NCBI RefSeq assembly: GCF_024700885.2
Contig: NZ_CP117016.1
Reading direction: 5' to 3' (one strand)
DNA length: 64,000 nucleotides
Source of the DNA: Escherichia coli
GTDB taxonomy: Bacteria; Pseudomonadota; Gammaproteobacteria; Enterobacterales; Enterobacteriaceae
In this document: one piece after another, positions 61,701 to 64,000 of the stretch
Numbering within the stretch: the first letter of the stretch is position 1
Layout of the letters: each line of letters opens with the position of its first letter
Made by a program: the position numbers and the translations under genes
Notes under the pieces: generated by a model
What the model was told of the DNA's origin: nothing
Database searches by the model: none
What the model saw: the letters and a program-made list of their open reading frames with translations, nothing else

Positions 61701-64000
61701 TTATCAGCATTAACACCGTTTCGACGGACGATCGTCTCAACGCCGCCGAACAGCAGCAGCCGTTAACCCTTAACGGCTCGACCAGCGCGGAAGTGGGGCA
61801 GACGGTCACTGTCACCTTCGGCGGCAAAACCTATACCGCCACGGTGGCCGCCAATGGCACCTGGACGCTGAACGTGCCTGCGGCAGATCTGGCATCGCTC
61901 GGGCAGGGCGCGCAGACCATTACCGCCAGCGTGAACGATCGCGCCGGTAACCCCGGTCAAACCACGCACGCCCTGACCGTCGATACCGTTGCGCCCACGG
62001 TCACCATCGCCACGGTGGCGGGTGACGATATTATCAACAACGCCGAGCAGCTTGCCGGGCAGACCATCAGCGGCACCACCACCGCCGAAGCGGGCCAGAC
62101 GGTGACCGTCACCTTTAACGGGCAAACCTGGACCGCAACGGTCGGCAGCGGCGGAAGCTGGTCGGTGTTTATTCCGGCGCAGCAGTTTGCCGGATTAAGC
62201 GACGGCAGCTACACCATTAGCGCGACGGTTAGCGATCAGGCCGGAAACCCCGGCAGCGCCAGCCGTGGCGTGACGCTGAACGGCGATGTGCCTACTGTCA
62301 CCATCAACACCTTTGCGGGTGATGATGTGGTGAATGCGGCGGAACACGGCTCGTCGCTGGTGATCAGCGGCACCACCACCGCCCCAGTCGGGCAGACGCT
62401 GACCCTAACCTTAAACGGCAAAACCTACACCACCACGGTGCAGACGGGCGGTAGCTGGAGCTACACCCTCGGCAGCGCCGATGTCACCGCGCTGGCGGAC
62501 GGTAACGCCTACGTGATTAACGCCTCGGTGAGCAACGCCATTGGCAACACCGGCAGCAGCAATCACACCATTACCGTCGATCTCAGCGCTCCGGCGATGG
62601 GCATTAATATCGATTCCCTGCAAGCCGACACTGGCCTTAGCGCCAGTGACTTTATCACCAGCGTCAGCCCGGTGGTGGTCAACGGCTCACTCACCGCCGC
62701 GCTTGCCAGTAACGAGACGGCGCAAATCAGTATCGACGGCGGCGTAACCTGGACTACGCTTACCGTCACTGGCACGAGCTGGCGCTATAACGACAGCCGC
62801 ACGCTGACCGATGGCAACTATCTCTATCAGGTGCGGGTGATTGACGCAGCGGGCAACGTCGGTGCCACCGACAGCCAGAATGTGGTGATCGACACCACCG
62901 CGCCAGACCCAGCGGTGAAAACCATCGCCATTAGCGCGATCACCACCGATACGGGCTTGATCACTAACGATTTTGTCACCAGCGACACGACGCTTGCGGT
63001 GAGCGGCACGCTGGGCGCGGCGCTTTCTGCTGGTGAGTTCGCGCAAATCAGTATCGACGGCGGCACCACCTGGCAGAACCTGTCAGTAAGCGGCTTAACC
63101 TGGACCTGGCTTGACGGGCGGACGCTGACCGATGGCAACTACAACTATCAGGTGCGGGTGATCGACACCGCCGGAAATATCGGCGCGACCGCCAGCCAGA
63201 TAGTCACCGTGGATACCACCGCGCCGCTGGCGAGCAAAACCATCGCCATTGCGGGCATTAGCGATGACACCGGGTTAAGCAGCAGCGATTTTGTTACTCG
63301 CGACACCACGCTGACCGTGCGCGGCACGCTCGGCGCGGCGCTGGCGGCAGACGAACGGGCGCAAATCAGCCTCGACGGCGGTGTCACCTGGACCACGTTA
63401 ACCGTTATCGGCACCAGTTGGAGCTATGCCGATGGTCGCACACTGACCGACGGCACCTGGAACTACACGGTGCGGGTGGTGGATCTGGCGGGGAACGTTG
63501 GGCAGACCGCAACGCAAAATGTGGTGGTCGACACCACCAGCCCGGAAGCGGCGAAAAGTATCACCATTACCGGTATCAGCGATGACACCGGAGCCAGCAG
63601 CAGCGATTTTATTACCAGCGACACCTCGCTTACCGTGCGCGGCGTATTGGGGGCGGCGCTCGGCGCTAACGAGTTCGCGCAAATCAGTACCGACAACGGC
63701 GCAACCTGGGTGAACGTGACCGTCGCCGCAGACGGCCTTAACTGGAGTTACGTTGACGGGCGTACGCTCACCAACGGCACCACCACCTGGCAGGTGCGGG
63801 TAGTCGATCTTGCGGGCAACGTTGGCGCAACCGGCAGCCAGTCGGCGCAGATTGACACCGTGAACCCGGCGCAGGTGCTCACCATCGCCAGCATCAGCAC
63901 CGACACGGGTAGCTCGGCAACTGACTTTATCACCAGCGATACCTCGCTCACGCTGACTGGTTCGCTGGGGGCGGGGCTTGCCAGCGGCGAAGTGGCGCAG
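49799..64000 (+). CDS. Giant repetitive T1SS-type adhesin (BapA/LapA/SiiE-like Ig-domain repeat protein); 5' end complete, 3' end beyond window
   Basis: ATG at 49799 with AGGA 8 nt upstream and an in-frame TAA at 49766..49768; no stop through position 64000 (4734 codons). Inferred stop-free because the track, which lists only complete ORFs, reports no plus-strand ORF in this frame. Translation shows an N-terminal module (MSLIIDVISRKTSVKQTLINPGDVTVV...) then tens of ~100-aa Thr/Val/Gly/Ala/Asn-rich repeats (INTIAGDDVINAAEKGA...VTVTLNGKTYTTT...DGSWSV.VPAAD...AGN). Confidence 0.88.
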   Translation, partial: MSLIIDVISRKTSVKQTLINPGDVTVVIYEPSVVQVHAQASAVSRYVREGNDLLIYMQDGTVIRCNGYFLQAANTAEQSELVFADGQQLTHVTFADTAAGGLAPVELTAQTTAIESIAPFLDTVAQTSAFPWGWLAGAAVGGGALGALLASGGDGDSKTEVINNPTPPAEPGNATPSFLVTDNQGDQRGILATNDITDDTTPTFSGSGQAGATIQIKDSNGNTIASTQVDNNGHWSVSLPTQSAGEHTWSVVQIVGSTITDAGSITLTIDNSQASVQVATTAGDNIINASEQAAGFTLSGTSSHLAQGTELTVTLNGKTYTTSVGANGAWSVQVPTADAQALGEGNQAVLVSGKDATGNTVTGAQLLTVDTQPPTLAINTIAQDNIVSAAEHNAALVLSGTSNAEAGQTVTLTVNGKSHSVTVGSDGTWQVTLPATEVQALAEGNYAVNASVSDRAGNTTSNSANFTVDTSAPVVSVNTVAGDDILNNAEQAVAQIISGQVSGASPGDTVTVKLGTHVLTGIVLADGSWNVALDPAVTRTLDRGANTIFVTVTDTAGNTGAASRAITLVGVSPLITINTVSGDDIISGAEKGAPLTLTGSTQQAETGQTVTVTLAGQSFTTTVQADGSWSLTVPAAAMGNLPDGAVAITASVTDLSGNTGNTSRTITVDSQAPALSIDPLTADNIINATESGQDLQITGTTDAQPGQTVTVTLNGQTYQGVVQSDGTWSVTVPAANVGALADGNATVTASVNDVAGNPSSVSRVALVDATPPVVTINPVATDNVINTPEHTQAQIISGTVTGAQAGDIVTVTLNNVDYTTVVDGSGNWSLGVPASVVSGLVDGSYPINVSVTDRAGNTGSQSLTVTVNTAAPVIGINTIAGDDVINASEKGADVQITGTSDQPANTAITVTLNGQNYTTTTDASGNWSVTVPASAVTALGQANYTVTAAVTSNIGNSATASHNVLVDSALPGVTINPVATDDIINAAEAGVAQTISGQVTGAAVGDAVTVTLGGNTYTTTVQPGLSWSVSIPADAIQALGNGDLTVSASVTNQNGNTGSGTRDITIDANLPGLRVDTVAGDDVVNIIEHGQALVVSGSSSGLAEGTPLTVTINNVEYTTAVQADGSWSVGVTAAQVSAWPAGTVTVTVSGESSAENPVSITHPVMVDLTPAAITINTIATDDVINATEKGADLTLSGTTTNVESGQTVTVTFGGKNYTASVASDGSWAATVPAADLAALPEGSASAQASVSNINGNSASAVHNYSVDSSVPTIIINTVASDNIVNASEADAGVTVSGSTTAEAGQIVTITLNSPTVQTYQATVQADGSWSINIPAADLEALTDGSHTLTATVNDKAGNPASTTHNLAVDLTVPVLTINTIAGDDIINAAEHGQALVISGSSTGGEAGDVVTVTLNSKTYTTTLDASGNWSVGVPAADVTALGSGPQTVTASITDAAGNSDDASRTVTVNLTAPTIGINTIATDDVINAIEKGADLQISGTSNQPAGTTITLTLNGQNYTATTDAAGNWSTTVPASAVSALGEASYTVTANVTDSAGNSNSASHNVQVNTALPGVTLNPVASDDIINAAESGVAQTISGQVTGAAAGDTVTVTLGGKTYTTTVQGNLSWSVGVPAADIQAIGNGDLTVNASVTNGVGNTGSGSRDITIDANLPGLRVDTVAGDDVVNSIEHGQALVITGSSSGLAAGAALTVVINNVTYGATVLADGTWSLGVPAADVGNWPAGTVNITVSGATSAGNPVTITHPVTVDLAAVAISINTVSGDDVINAAEKGADLTLSGSTSGVEAGQTVTVTFGGKTYTATVAGDGSWTTTVPAADLSALRDGDATVQASVSNINGNTASATHAYSVDATAPTLAINTIATDDILNAAEAGNPLTISGSSTAEAGQTVTVTLNGVTYTGTVLADGSWSVSVPTADLSNLTASQYTVSASVSDKAGNPATATHGLAVDLTVPVLTINTVSGDDIINAAEHGQALVISGSSAGGEAGDVITVTLNSKTYTTTLDASGNWSVGVPLSDVTALGSGPQTITATITDAAGNSDDASRTVTVNLTAPTIGINTIASDDVINATEKGADLQITGTSNQPAGTTITVTLNGQNYTATTDSSGNWSATVPASAVSALGEANYTVTAAATDADGNSGSASHNVQVNTALPGVTINVVATDDIINAAEAGTDQTISGQVTGATAGDTVTVTLGGATYTATVQANLSWSVDVPASALQALGNGELTISASVTNSVGNTGNGTREITIDANLPGLRIDTVAGDDVVNIIEHGQALVITGSSSDLAAGSNVTLTINGQTYVAAVLADGSWSVGVPAADVSAWPAGTVTITASGNTTAGNPVSVTHPVTVDLTAVAVSINAITADDVINAAEKGAALTLSGSTSGVEAGQTVTVTFGGKTYSATVAANGSWSTSVPAADMAALRDGDASAQARVSNVNGNSATTTHAYSVDASAPTVAINTIAGDDILNAAEAGAALTITGSSTAEAGQTVTVTLNGENYTGTVQTDGSWSVSVPPADLSALTASNYTVSAAVSDKAGNPASVNHNLTVDTSVPVVTINTVAGDDVINATEHAQAQIISGSATGAATGSTVTVTIGSTTFTTVLDASGNWSVGVPASVVSALANGTVTINASVTDAAGNSGSATHQVTVNTGLPSITFNAISGDNVLNADEKGQPLTISGSSTGLATGAQVTVTLNGHNYSATTDAAGNWTLTVPVSDLAALGQANYTVSASATSAAGNTASSQANLLVDSGLPGVTINTVAGDDIINAAEAGADQTISGVVTRAAAGDTVTVTLGGNTYTAQVQPDLSWSVTVPADDLQALGNGDLTINASVTNANGNTGSGSRDITIDANLPGLRVDTVAGDDIVNSIEHGQALVITGGSSGLNAGAVLTVTINSVAYSTTVQADGSWSVGIPAANVSAWPAGPLTVEVTGQSSAGNPVSVSHPFTVDLTAVAISINTVASDDVINAAEKGTGLTLSGSTSGIESGQTVTVTFGGKTYTASVAANGSWSVNVPAADLATLPDGAANVQASVSSASGNSASATHAYSVDASAPTLTINTIASDDILNATEAGSPLTISGTSTAETGQTVTVTLNGATYTGNVQADGSWSVSVPTSALGVLSASNYTVSATVNDKAGNPGSASHNLAVDTTAPVLTINTVAGDDIINDAEHGQALVISGTSTGGEAGDVVSVVLNGKTYTTTLDASGNWSVGVPAADVTALGSGAQTITASVSDRAGNSDDASRTVTVSLSAPVISINTIAGDDVINATEKGSDLALSGTSDQPAGTAITVTLNGQNYSATTDASGNWSVTVPASAVSALGEATYSVTASVTNAQGNSSTASHNVQVNTALPGVTINPVATDDIINASEAGSAQTISGQVTGAAAGSIVTVELGGKTYTATVQPDLSWNVSVPAADWQALGNGELTVNASVTNAVGNTGSGTRDITIDASLPGLRVDTVAGDDVVNIIEHAQAQVITGTSSGFAAGTALTVVINNQTYAATVLANGTWSVGVPAADVSNWPAGTLNITVSGANSAGTQTSITHPLTVDLSTVAVSINSITSDDVINAAEKGAALTLSGSTSGVEAGQAVTITFGGKTYTTTVAANGSWSTTVPAADMAALRDGDASAQVRVTNVNGNSATATHEYSVDSAAPTVTINTIASDNIINASEAAAGVTVSGTSTAEAGQTLTVTLNGTNYQTTVQADGSWSLTLPASDLTALANNGYTLTATVSDLAGNPGSASKGVTVDTTAPVISFNTVAGDDVINNVEHTQAQIISGTASGAVAGDRLVVTIAGQQYVTSTDASGNWSVGVPASVISGLADGTVTISATVTDSAGNSSTQTHNVQVNTAAVSLSVSTISGDNLINAAEAGSALTLSGTGTNFAAGTVVTVLLNGKGYSATIQSNGSWSVNVPAADVAALADGTSYTVSASAQDSAGNSATASRSVAVDLTAPIISINTVSTDDRLNAAEQQQPLTLNGSTSAEVGQTVTVTFGGKTYTATVAANGTWTLNVPAADLASLGQGAQTITASVNDRAGNPGQTTHALTVDTVAPTVTIATVAGDDIINNAEQLAGQTISGTTTAEAGQTVTVTFNGQTWTATVGSGGSWSVFIPAQQFAGLSDGSYTISATVSDQAGNPGSASRGVTLNGDVPTVTINTFAGDDVVNAAEHGSSLVISGTTTAPVGQTLTLTLNGKTYTTTVQTGGSWSYTLGSADVTALADGNAYVINASVSNAIGNTGSSNHTITVDLSAPAMGINIDSLQADTGLSASDFITSVSPVVVNGSLTAALASNETAQISIDGGVTWTTLTVTGTSWRYNDSRTLTDGNYLYQVRVIDAAGNVGATDSQNVVIDTTAPDPAVKTIAISAITTDTGLITNDFVTSDTTLAVSGTLGAALSAGEFAQISIDGGTTWQNLSVSGLTWTWLDGRTLTDGNYNYQVRVIDTAGNIGATASQIVTVDTTAPLASKTIAIAGISDDTGLSSSDFVTRDTTLTVRGTLGAALAADERAQISLDGGVTWTTLTVIGTSWSYADGRTLTDGTWNYTVRVVDLAGNVGQTATQNVVVDTTSPEAAKSITITGISDDTGASSSDFITSDTSLTVRGVLGAALGANEFAQISTDNGATWVNVTVAADGLNWSYVDGRTLTNGTTTWQVRVVDLAGNVGATGSQSAQIDTVNPAQVLTIASISTDTGSSATDFITSDTSLTLTGSLGAGLASGEVAQ
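50620..62580 (+). repeat. Coding tandem repeats: about 40 Ig-like ~300-bp units organised in a ~1.8 kb six-domain super-repeat (about 6.5 copies)
   Basis: Unit boundaries recur every 297-303 bp; near-identical blocks begin at about 50618, 52415, 54218, 56012, 57809, 59603 and 61391 (spacing 1788-1803 bp, all multiples of 3). Confidence 0.85.
62580..64000 (+). repeat. Second family of coding tandem repeats (~318-324 bp, ~107 aa) in the distal part of the adhesin
   Basis: Repeating motif ...DTTAP..K(T)IAI.(G)IS.DTG.S.(S)DF(I/V)T.DT.LT(V).G.LGAAL...E.AQIS.DGG.TW..L.V.G..W.Y.DGRTLTDG...Y.VRV(I/V)D.AGN(V/I)G.T; unit starts at about 62891, 63212, 63530 and 63854. Confidence 0.8.

What the first reader, a model, noticed from the sequence alone, without database searches (positions are those of the whole stretch)
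62580..64000. Switch to a different domain family in the distal part of the adhesin
Near 62.58 kb the repeat changes from the INT.AGDD.INA.E...TVTLNG..Y type to ~107-aa units with the motif S.DF(I/V)T.DT.L...G.LGAAL...E.AQIS.DGG.TW...TLTDG.Y.Y.VRV.D.AGN. A change of domain type toward the distal end is typical of giant adhesins, where tip-proximal domains mediate binding and the periodic stalk is a spacer. These units may be the functional binding or calcium-dependent part.
Basis: seen in the sequence. Interest (0 to 1): 0.45.

Follow-up and report, generated by a model that had tools for sequence, protein, structure and literature searches.

The report
Second Ig-domain type in E. coli SiiEA
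Near its far end, the giant E. coli surface adhesin SiiEA really does switch from one kind of immunoglobulin-like repeat to another, but the second kind is also a common stalk-building domain, so this is an ordinary feature of an annotated gene and probably not its binding tip.

Summary
The window is E. coli, identical to strain MLI114. The ORF starting at 49799 is the first 4734 aa of the 5727-aa type I-secreted adhesin SiiEA (EHEC O-island 28 locus). At nt 62603 (aa 4269), 40 units of 99-102 aa give way abruptly to units of 106-107 aa. The window holds four complete units and 40 aa of a fifth.

Type-1 units are MpIBP-RII-like "Ca_tandemer" extenders. Type-2 units are full-length Pfam Big_13 domains, each with an Asp-box (S-x-D-x-G-x-T-W). 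Their closest solved relative is Salmonella SiiE BIg50-52.

The two types are distant homologues (hhalign 92.5%), that is, subfamilies of one Ig-like superfamily, with no intermediate units.

Type-2 is not tip-specific. It matches 15,456 cluster representatives, and it alone builds stalks of up to 34 units in other adhesins.

In SiiEA relatives, 4-6 type-2 units form a fixed block. This block sits between a variable type-1 stalk (2-43 units) and, beyond the window, a CRTAC1/integrin-like FG-GAP propeller, RTX repeats and a T1SS signal. The propeller is the likelier ligand binder.

Calcium dependence is plausible for both types. Verdict: ordinary and already annotated.

The parts
48335..49690 (+). 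TolC-family outer-membrane component of the dedicated type I secretion system (z0608/tolC28 equivalent)
   Evidence: ORF list. RefSeq annotation of the identical sequence in strain MLI114. The OI-28 paper PMC12758282.
49799..64000 (+). siiEA, first 4734 of 5727 codons (cut by the window end)
   Evidence: The open frame runs to the window end. It is 100% identical to NZ_CP117013.1 over 17 kb. The window ORF equals the first 4734 aa of the annotated 5727-aa SiiEA. NCBIfam NF047714 adhesin_SiiEA scores 509 bits against a cut-off of 425.
49799..50488 (+). N-terminal SiiEA-specific region containing the BapA prefix-like (retention) domain (aa 5-69 = nt 49811-50005)
   Evidence: NF047714 covers residues 1-230. 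NF033677 biofilm_BapA_N covers residues 5-69 at 71.5 bits, cut-off 35.
50630..62602 (+). Type-1 array: 40 Ig-like extender units of 99-102 aa (Ca_tandemer / MpIBP RII type), with a six-unit super-repeat
   Evidence: Unit spacing. Alignment A1. NF033510 scores 91-108 bits per unit. The PDB match to 4P99 has E 7.7e-72. Unit identity at offsets 6/12/18 is 0.63/0.63/0.59, against 0.44-0.47 elsewhere.
62603..62923 (+). Type-2 unit 1 (aa 4269-4375), Big_13 / SiiE-BIg-like, Asp-box at 62729-62752
62924..63241 (+). Type-2 unit 2 (aa 4376-4481), Asp-box at 63050-63073
   Evidence: Modelled with unit 3 at pLDDT 97.2.
63242..63559 (+). Type-2 unit 3 (aa 4482-4587), Asp-box at 63368-63391
63560..63880 (+). 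Type-2 unit 4 (aa 4588-4694), Asp-box at 63686-63709
63881..64000 (+). First 40 aa of type-2 unit 5. The unit is completed beyond the window (aa 4695-4797 in strain MLI114).
   Evidence: The out-of-sample type-2 HMM score is 135.6 bits.

Best explanation
The region is the start of a second, shorter block of Ig-like stalk domains in the E. coli type I-secreted RTX adhesin SiiEA.

Shown:
- The protein has an N-terminal BapA-prefix domain. This is the retention domain that anchors RTX adhesins in the outer-membrane pore.
- Next come 40 MpIBP-RII-like 'Ca_tandemer' units.
- Then come six Big_13 / SiiE-BIg-like units: five closely similar and one divergent. Each of the five closely similar units carries a single Asp-box; the divergent sixth does not.
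- Then come one more Ig domain, a CRTAC1/integrin-like FG-GAP beta-propeller with a following beta-sandwich, RTX nonapeptides and a C-terminal T1SS signal.

Inferred:
- The type-2 units are seven-stranded beta-sandwiches joined head to tail. Conserved Asp residues at the domain ends (D9, D16, D81-x-A-G-N, D97) bind Ca2+ outside the cell, as in Salmonella SiiE.
- Calcium binding would stiffen this block into a rod and help pull the chain out through the secretion pore.
- The block works as a fixed-length distal 'neck' that belongs to a conserved C-terminal cassette (type-2 block + propeller + RTX/T1SS signal). The type-1 array is the length-variable spacer.
- The propeller head, not the type-2 units, is the most likely primary ligand-binding module.
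For: Identity of the gene. The window is 100% identical to E. coli MLI114 over 17 kb. The gene is annotated siiEA, with TolC upstream and the ABC transporter and HlyD downstream. NF047714 scores 509 bits.

Domain classification:
- Type 2 matches Pfam Big_13 at full length.
- A type-2 profile finds the SiiE BIg50-52 sequence, 2YN3, at E 6e-8.
- The AF2 model of units 2+3 has pLDDT 97.2 and pTM 0.86, with seven strands per domain.
- Its best PDB match is SiiE 2YN5/2YN3, at E 1e-11 and 28% identity over 209 columns.
- Type 1 matches MpIBP RII, 4P99, at E 7.7e-72.

Extender role:
- The type-2 profile matches 15,456 50%-identity cluster representatives at E<=1e-3, and 1,298 at E<=1e-30.
- Of the best 150, 97 contain type-2 units but no type-1 units, with up to 34 full units per protein. 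Examples include Pseudomonas proteins with BapA-prefix-like N-termini.

Conserved cassette:
- In 19 proteins with both types, the order is nearly always type 1 then type 2.
- Type-1 counts range from 1 to 43. Type-2 counts are 4-6 in those that also carry the SiiEA-like propeller and C-terminus.
- Within E. coli, elppa4 has 12 more type-1 units than MLI114 but the same 1460-aa distal part.

Calcium sites. The type-2 profile alignment to SiiE BIg52, read with the SiiE residue numbering in PMC6272769, matches 16D, 24D, 97D-x-A-G-N and 117D, plus 74W and 86D. D9, D16, D81, A83, G84, N85 and D97 are at least 90% conserved across 49 di-domains from diverse proteins.

Head domain:
- Pfam finds FG-GAP_3 three times, HemolysinCabind, and TIGR03661 at 36.5 bits against a cut-off of 17.6.
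- The model has pLDDT 86.4, and its best PDB match is CRTAC1 9ETN at E 1.9e-14. A GlcNAc-binding propeller lectin (PVL) and integrin alpha also match.

General RTX-adhesin plan. The order is retention module, extenders, distal ligand-binding region, then beta-roll and T1SS signal (bioRxiv 10.1101/2025.09.30.679566).

Function of the locus. The OI-28 T1SS/adhesin is needed for EHEC adherence and is Ca2+-responsive (PMC12758282).
Against: - No calcium, rigidity or binding measurement exists for these units.
- The fifth SiiE Ca ligand (43D) has no aligned acidic residue in type 2. An invariant E38 lies four positions away, so the inter-domain site may differ.
- I could not inspect model coordinates, so clustering of the Asp residues at the interface is inferred from alignment only.
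- In Salmonella SiiE the BIg domains themselves bind glycans and there is no separate head. The nearest structural relative therefore argues that type-2 units could also bind.
- The EHEC paper reports partial complementation by constructs with only two Ig-like domains, but it does not say which ones.
- The propeller's ligand-binding role is inferred from fold similarity alone.
- The fixed count of type-2 units rests on about ten representative proteins. In E. coli the count itself varies (6 versus 5).
Confidence: 0.72

Rival explanations
1. The type-2 units are themselves lectin-like binding modules. As proposed for the C-terminal BIg domains of Salmonella SiiE, several distal units would each make a weak, Ca2+-shaped contact with host glycans (GlcNAc, sialic acid, mucins). 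The block would then be part of the binding tip.
For: - SiiE BIg50-52 is the closest solved relative by sequence and by fold.
- SiiE binds through its BIg domains. Its C-terminal type II Ca sites are needed for adhesion (PMC5466336; PMC6272769).
- The two type II-site Asp positions (16D/24D, equivalent to D9/D16) and the conserved Trp are kept in type 2.
- The block lies next to the head and is kept at 4-6 copies.
- Truncated two-Ig constructs partly restore EHEC adherence.
Against: - The same domain type forms whole stalks of up to 34 units next to the cell-proximal N-terminus in other adhesins. That fits a structural role.
- SiiEA, unlike SiiE, has a dedicated propeller head.
- No binding data exist.
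- The residues conserved across the family sit at the domain ends and in the fold core (DTG, DxAGN, VDT, Asp-box), not in an obvious surface patch.
Confidence: 0.18
2. There is no real second domain type. The units are the same repeat family that has simply drifted in sequence towards the end of the array.
For: Both types hit Pfam Big_13 and NCBIfam Ca_tandemer. hhalign gives 92.5% probability and E 4.7e-7. Both share the G.W core and the D.AGN and VD...P motifs.
Against: - The change is abrupt. The type-1 HMM gives 115 bits on the last type-1 unit and 13 bits on the next unit. The type-2 HMM gives 6 bits and then 176 bits.
- Unit length changes from 99-102 aa to 106-107 aa.
- The N-terminal ~20 residues do not align.
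- An Asp-box is present in 4 of 4 complete type-2 units and in 0 of 40 type-1 units.
- Type-2-only proteins are common in other genera, so the subfamily predates this gene.
Confidence: 0.05
3. The switch marks a recent recombination joint. E. coli siiEA would be a chimera in which a C-terminal cassette (type-2 block + propeller + RTX) from another adhesin was fused to a type-1 stalk.
For: RTX adhesins are described as 'mix-and-match', with whole ligand-binding regions swapped between adhesins. Type-2-only and type-1+type-2 proteins coexist.
Against: - The same order and junction occur in Enterobacter, Dryocola, Citrobacter and Pseudomonas representatives. Any fusion is therefore old and not specific to E. 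coli.
- GC content is uniform across the junction (0.618 and 0.622).
- Both sides of the junction are about 97.5% identical between MLI114 and O157:H7.
Confidence: 0.05

Closest known systems
E. coli SiiEA / EHEC O-island 28 RTX adhesin (z0609 + z0615, 'RtxA28/RtxB28')
   Same: It is the same gene at the same locus, between ybaT and cueR, with TolC, ABC and HlyD components. RefSeq annotates it as 'BapA-related adhesin SiiEA'. The system is required for EHEC adherence and colonisation and is Ca2+-responsive (PMC12758282).
   Different: The published description speaks only of 'Ig-like domains' and RTX repeats. It does not separate two Ig subtypes or mention the FG-GAP propeller (0 occurrences of 'FG-GAP'). 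In O157:H7 the gene is annotated as a pseudogene with an internal stop. Here it is one intact 5727-aa ORF.
Salmonella enterica SiiE BIg domains (PDB 2YN3/2YN5)
   Same: It is the best solved relative of type-2 units by sequence profile (E 6e-8) and by fold (E 1e-11, 28% identity). Both are tandem seven-stranded Ig-like domains. Shared motifs include D-x-A-G-N, terminal V-D-T, an N-terminal D..G....D and a conserved Trp. Both are T1SS giant adhesins.
   Different: SiiE is built almost entirely of this one domain kind (53 copies) and has no propeller head. One of the five Ca-ligand acids (43D) is not conserved in type 2. Type 2 has an Asp-box where the aligned SiiE BIg52 segment reads THNGVTD, without the motif. 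The TM-score is only 0.46-0.51 for the di-domain because the inter-domain geometry differs.
Marinomonas primoryensis ice-binding adhesin MpIBP, region II extenders (PDB 4P99), NCBIfam Ca_tandemer
   Same: This is what the type-1 units are (E 7.7e-72; 91-108 bits). They are Ca2+-rigidified tandem extenders in an RTX adhesin with the same overall plan: retention module, extenders, distal ligand-binding region, then RTX/T1SS.
   Different: Type-2 units reach only 16-23 bits on Ca_tandemer, below its 50-bit cut-off. They also lack the I-N-x-V-x-G-D-D-x-I-N-x-x-E N-terminal motif.
Pfam Big_13 (PF19077) bacterial Ig-like domain
   Same: Each type-2 unit matches model positions 9-13 to 102 of 102, with E 1e-12 to 1e-8.
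   Different: None found. Type 2 looks like an ordinary member. Type-1 units also hit the model, but only partially.
Asp-box singlets in Ig-like domains (sulfite oxidase / SorA dimerisation domain, chitobiase)
   Same: An exact S-x-D-x-G-x-T-W motif occurs once per type-2 unit. There are weak profile hits to sulfite oxidase Ig-like domains over the same stretch. The literature describes such singlets as surface-exposed hairpins that support domain-domain contacts (PMC2716378).
   Different: Here the motif recurs in tandem domains of an adhesin. No evidence links it to dimerisation or sugar binding.

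Membership tests
RTX adhesin of the BapA/SiiEA kind (NCBIfam NF047714) | N-terminal region matches the SiiEA model above its curated cut-off | tested here: met
   509 bits against a cut-off of 425, residues 1-230
RTX adhesin of the BapA/SiiEA kind (NCBIfam NF047714) | BapA prefix-like / retention domain at the N-terminus | tested here: met
   NF033677 at 71.5 bits against a cut-off of 35, residues 5-69
RTX adhesin of the BapA/SiiEA kind (NCBIfam NF047714) | Long tandem array of Ig-like extender domains | tested here: met
   40 type-1 units plus 6 type-2 units
RTX adhesin of the BapA/SiiEA kind (NCBIfam NF047714) | C-terminal RTX nonapeptide repeats and a T1SS secretion signal | tested here: met
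   These lie outside the window, in the identical strain MLI114. HemolysinCabind has E 1.7e-4. TIGR03661 scores 36.5 bits against a cut-off of 17.6.
RTX adhesin of the BapA/SiiEA kind (NCBIfam NF047714) | Adjacent dedicated T1SS genes (OMP, ABC, MFP) | tested here: met
   The TolC-family gene is at window 48335-49690. The ABC permease/ATPase and HlyD genes lie directly downstream in L002.
Pfam Big_13 (PF19077), applied to type-2 units | Full-length significant match to the family HMM | tested here: met
   Five units have E 1.1e-12 to 1.4e-8 and cover model positions 9-13 to 102 of 102. The tool does not print the gathering threshold.
NCBIfam Ca_tandemer (NF033510), applied to type-2 units | Score at or above the curated 50-bit cut-off | tested here: not met
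   Single type-2 units score 16.1-23.3 bits. Type-1 units score 90.8-107.9 bits.
SiiE-type BIg domain (Salmonella) | Same fold and detectable sequence homology | tested here: met
   hmmsearch E 6e-8. Foldseek E 1e-11, probability 1.00, 28% identity.
SiiE-type BIg domain (Salmonella) | Five conserved acidic Ca2+ ligands (16D, 24D; 43D, 97D, 117D) | tested here: inconclusive
   Four positions align to conserved Asp (D9, D16, D81, D97). The 43D position aligns to A/L. An invariant E38 lies nearby.
SiiE-type BIg domain (Salmonella) | Ca2+ binding and lectin-like binding to host glycans | not testable with these tools
   This needs biochemistry.
Asp-box motif | S-x-D-x-G-x-T-W sequence | tested here: met
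   Present in 4 of 4 complete type-2 units in the window and in 0 of 40 type-1 units. Pfam BNR hits are only E about 0.7 each.
Asp-box motif | Beta-hairpin conformation | tested here: inconclusive
   In the model the motif (residues 43-50) follows strand 38-43 and precedes short strands at 51-56.
Integrin/CRTAC1-like FG-GAP beta-propeller (C-terminal head, outside the window) | FG-GAP repeats with D-x-D/N-x-D-G Ca loops, and a propeller fold | tested here: met
   Pfam FG-GAP_3 three times, E 1.6e-9 to 2.5e-7. PDB profile hits to CRTAC1 and integrin alpha. Model pLDDT 86.4, best match 9ETN at E 1.9e-14 and TM 0.56-0.59.

The most novel reading that the evidence does not exclude
The 4-6 SiiE-like type-2 domains, together with the CRTAC1/integrin-like FG-GAP propeller, form a conserved distal 'head' cassette. 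In this reading the type-2 units are not passive. They would give multivalent, Ca2+-dependent, lectin-like contacts with mucin glycans, as in SiiE, that cooperate with a propeller lectin. That would define a ligand-binding architecture not yet catalogued for RTX adhesins. Surveys of RTX-adhesin binding domains list CBM, vWFA and peptide-binding domains and never mention a propeller.
Probability: 0.15. Interest if true: 0.5.

Novelty: already known. Interest (0 to 1): 0.17.

Why it matters
SiiEA (OI-28) is present in about 18% of complete E. coli genomes (958 of 5426), and it contributes to EHEC adherence. Knowing which part is variable spacer (type-1 array), which is fixed neck (type-2 block) and which is the probable binding head (propeller) tells experimenters what to truncate, swap or block. 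It also explains why short-read assemblies and annotations of this gene are unreliable. The switch of Ig subtype itself is a routine feature of RTX adhesins and adds no new biology.

Tried and rejected
1. Diversifying selection on the type-2 block. The type-2 region is below 95% nt identity in about 60% of siiEA-positive genomes. The figure is about 3% for the propeller/RTX part and 17% for the N-terminus. A unit-by-unit comparison with O157:H7 strain 1130 showed units that are 95-100% identical, plus one fused 2/3 hybrid unit, giving 5 units instead of 6. Flanks were 97.5% identical. In that strain, the fused unit and the resulting mis-registered alignment account for the low identity. Only one strain was compared, so positive selection is not excluded across the collection.

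2. Fixed-lag DNA autocorrelation for a higher-order repeat. This failed because units differ in length. A unit-by-unit identity matrix worked.

3. Literature search for 'SiiEA'. It returned only an annotation-level mention, 'adhesin for cattle intestine colonization', copied from the UMN026 annotation, and no experiments.

4. PADLOC defence-system models on the C-terminal part. There were no hits.

5. First extraction of propeller homologues. It merged several domain hits and gave over-long segments. It was redone from the best hits.

6. Recent chimera hypothesis. This was rejected because the junction is shared across genera and GC content is uniform.

7. Literature search for FG-GAP heads in T1SS adhesins. 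It found nothing relevant.

Full report
**What is there**

Translating the + strand around the finding shows one open frame. It opens at 49769, has an ATG at 49799 and runs off the window end, giving 4734 codons. NCBIfam places the N-terminus in NF047714, 'BapA-related adhesin SiiEA' (509 bits, cut-off 425). A BapA prefix-like domain lies at residues 5-69.

The DNA is E. coli. Positions 47000-64000 are 100% identical in one piece to strain MLI114, NZ_CP117013.1. There the gene is annotated siiEA and is 5727 aa long. It is preceded by a TolC-family gene (window 48335-49690) and followed by a T1SS ABC permease/ATPase, a HlyD adaptor and cueR. The window ORF equals the first 4734 residues of that protein.

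This is the O-island 28 locus of EHEC O157:H7 (z0608, z0609/z0615, z0634, z0635). A 2025 paper showed it to be needed for epithelial adherence and mouse colonisation, and to respond to calcium (PMC12758282).

**Checking the observation**

Motif spacing shows 40 units of 99-102 aa from aa 278 to 4268 (nt 50630-62602). Units of 106-107 aa then start at aa 4269 (nt 62603). The window contains four complete type-2 units and 40 aa of a fifth.

- Type-2 units are 56-65% identical to each other.
- Type-1 units average 47% identity to each other (range 27-92%).
- Cross-type identity averages 25.5% (range 17-36%).

HMMs built from the window's own units show how sharp the boundary is:

| HMM | Last type-1 units | Type-2 units |
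|---|---|---|
| Type-1 HMM | 115-118 bits | 4-13 bits |
| Type-2 HMM | 10 bits or less on every type-1 unit | 162-179 bits on units 1-4 |

The type-2 HMM also gives 136 bits on unit 5, which was not used to build it, and 43 bits on a divergent unit 6. At the DNA level, Tandem Repeats Finder sees the type-2 repeat with period 318 and score 726.

**What the two unit types are**

*Type 1.* These units score 91-108 bits on NCBIfam Ca_tandemer. A profile of them finds the Marinomonas ice-binding adhesin region II tetra-tandemer, 4P99, at E 7.7e-72. They are the calcium-stiffened extender type.

*Type 2.*
- They reach only 16-23 bits on Ca_tandemer, below its 50-bit cut-off.
- They match Pfam Big_13 over its full length, with E 1e-12 to 1e-8.
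- A type-2 profile finds Salmonella SiiE BIg50-52, 2YN3, as its only clear solved relative (E 6e-8).
- An AlphaFold2 model of units 2+3, built on 49 di-domains from diverse proteins, is very confident (pLDDT 97.2, pTM 0.86). It shows two seven-stranded beta-sandwiches.
- Its best PDB matches are the SiiE structures, at E 1e-11 and 28% identity.

*Asp-box.* Each complete type-2 unit carries an exact Asp-box, S-x-D-x-G-x-T-W. None of the 40 type-1 units does. This explains the weak BNR hits and the weak hits to sulfite oxidase Ig-like domains. Single Asp-boxes are known in Ig-like domains, where they are surface hairpins that support domain contacts (PMC2716378).

**One family or two?**

- Type-1 units also hit Big_13, but only partially (E 1.4e-8 and 3.1e-4).
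- Type-2 units also hit Ca_tandemer weakly.
- Profile-profile comparison gives 92.5% probability and E 4.7e-7 over 80 columns. It leaves out the first ~20 residues.

So the two types are homologous subfamilies of one Ig-like superfamily. It is not drift within the array, for three reasons. There are no intermediates. The length, the N-terminal motif and the Asp-box all differ. And the type-2 subfamily is independently widespread.

**Is type 2 a tip-specific domain?**

No. The type-2 profile matches 15,456 cluster representatives (50% identity) at E<=1e-3, and 1,298 at E<=1e-30. Among the best 150:
- 97 proteins have type-2 units and no type-1 units.
- They carry up to 34 full units. One example is a 6027-aa Pseudomonas protegens protein whose N-terminus resembles the BapA prefix.

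A domain that builds whole stalks starting next to the cell-proximal end is an extender.

Nineteen proteins have both types, and the order is nearly always type 1 then type 2. In those that also share SiiEA's propeller and C-terminus, type-1 counts run from 2 to 31, while type-2 counts stay at 4-6. These come from Enterobacter, Dryocola, Citrobacter and Pseudomonas. Within E. coli, strain elppa4 has 12 more type-1 units than MLI114 but the same distal 1460 aa. The type-2 block thus behaves as part of a conserved C-terminal cassette, and the type-1 array as the variable spacer.

**What follows beyond the window**

In MLI114 the type-2 block consists of units 1-5 plus a divergent sixth (aa 4810-4902). 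After it come:
- one more Ig domain with weak type-1/MpIBP affinity (aa 4913-5002);
- FG-GAP repeats;
- RTX nonapeptides;
- a T1SS C-terminal target domain.

A model of aa 4903-5490 (pLDDT 86.4) is most similar to CRTAC1, 9ETN (E 1.9e-14, TM 0.56-0.59). It also resembles a GlcNAc-binding propeller lectin and integrin alpha subunits.

RTX adhesins are described as a retention module, extenders, a distal ligand-binding region and a beta-roll/T1SS signal (bioRxiv 10.1101/2025.09.30.679566). On that plan, the propeller is the natural candidate for the ligand-binding domain. The type-2 block is the last stretch of stalk leading to it.

**How it most likely works**

*Shown:* the domain order, the folds, the homologies and the conservation pattern.

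*Inferred:* the conserved acids at the domain ends bind Ca2+.
- D9 and D16 align with SiiE 16D and 24D.
- D81-x-A-G-N and D97 align with SiiE 97D-x-A-G-N and 117D.
- In SiiE such sites rigidify the rod and support secretion (PMC5466336).
- The 43D position is not conserved, so the junction site may differ.

Calcium dependence is therefore plausible, but it is equally a property of type 1.

**Rivals**

- *Lectin-like type-2 units.* Because SiiE's own BIg domains bind glycans, a lectin-like contribution of type-2 units cannot be excluded (about 0.18).
- *Pure drift.* About 0.05. It is contradicted.
- *Recent chimera.* About 0.05. It is contradicted.

**Novelty and verdict**

The gene is annotated in RefSeq with its own NCBIfam model. 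Both domain types are in Pfam or NCBIfam. The locus has been characterised experimentally. Mixed extender types are a described property of RTX adhesins.

The published OI-28 work does not separate the two Ig subtypes or mention the propeller. That is a small descriptive gap, not a new kind of system. The finding is real but ordinary.

Noticed in passing
window 50630-62602: The 40 type-1 units are organised in a higher-order repeat of six units (~600 aa, 1.8 kb). Unit identity at offsets 6, 12 and 18 is 0.63, 0.63 and 0.59, against 0.44-0.47 at all other offsets. It is strongest for units ~7-33. Strain elppa4 has exactly 12 more units (two super-repeats), so expansion probably proceeds by super-repeat.
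   Followed up: partly
L002:29810-31983 (strain MLI114, beyond the window end; SiiEA aa ~5003-5727): The adhesin ends in a CRTAC1/integrin-like FG-GAP beta-propeller plus a beta-sandwich, before the RTX repeats and T1SS signal. Neither a recent survey of RTX-adhesin ligand-binding domains nor the OI-28 paper mentions a propeller. This head may be an undescribed binding-domain class for RTX adhesins.
   Followed up: partly
L003:1-5774 (E. coli O157:H7 strain 1130): RefSeq marks siiEA as a pseudogene in O157:H7 ('internal stop; incomplete'). The 2025 OI-28 paper treats the two pieces (z0609, z0615) as two separate RTX proteins, each needed for adherence. How an N-terminal piece without a C-terminal secretion signal would be exported is unexplained.
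   Followed up: no
L003 aa 571-1105 versus window 62603-64000 and beyond: O157:H7 has five type-2 units instead of six. Its second unit is a hybrid of MLI114 units 2 and 3 (74% and 84% identity), consistent with unequal recombination between neighbouring units. The other units are 95-100% identical.
   Followed up: yes
window 62400-64000, compared with 49799-50629 and L002:29810-31983: Across 958 siiEA-positive complete E. coli genomes, the type-2 region is below 95% nucleotide identity in about 60%. The figure is about 3% for the propeller/RTX part and 17% for the N-terminus. At least part of this comes from unit indels and mis-registered alignments. Whether real allelic diversification adds to it was not resolved.
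   Followed up: partly
window 49799-64000 versus flanks: The adhesin gene has 58-62% G+C and a strong A>T skew on the coding strand (AT skew +0.13 to +0.17). The surrounding E. coli genes have 47-57% G+C. The TolC-family gene just upstream lies in a 47% G+C stretch. This fits an island (OI-28) inserted between ybaT and cueR. It is present in 958 of 5426 complete genomes, always chromosomal.
   Followed up: partly
window 53513-53971, 55898-56374, 58255-58824, 59204-59872 (- strand): Four antisense ORFs of 152-222 aa lie inside siiEA. They are most likely chance open frames in G+C-rich repetitive DNA. RefSeq annotates none of them.
   Followed up: no
L002:36437-37732 (- strand, ~4.5 kb downstream of siiEA, outside the window): A YadA-like (trimeric autotransporter) adhesin gene and three small hypothetical genes sit between cueR and ybbJ. 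A second adhesin therefore lies next to the island.
   Followed up: no
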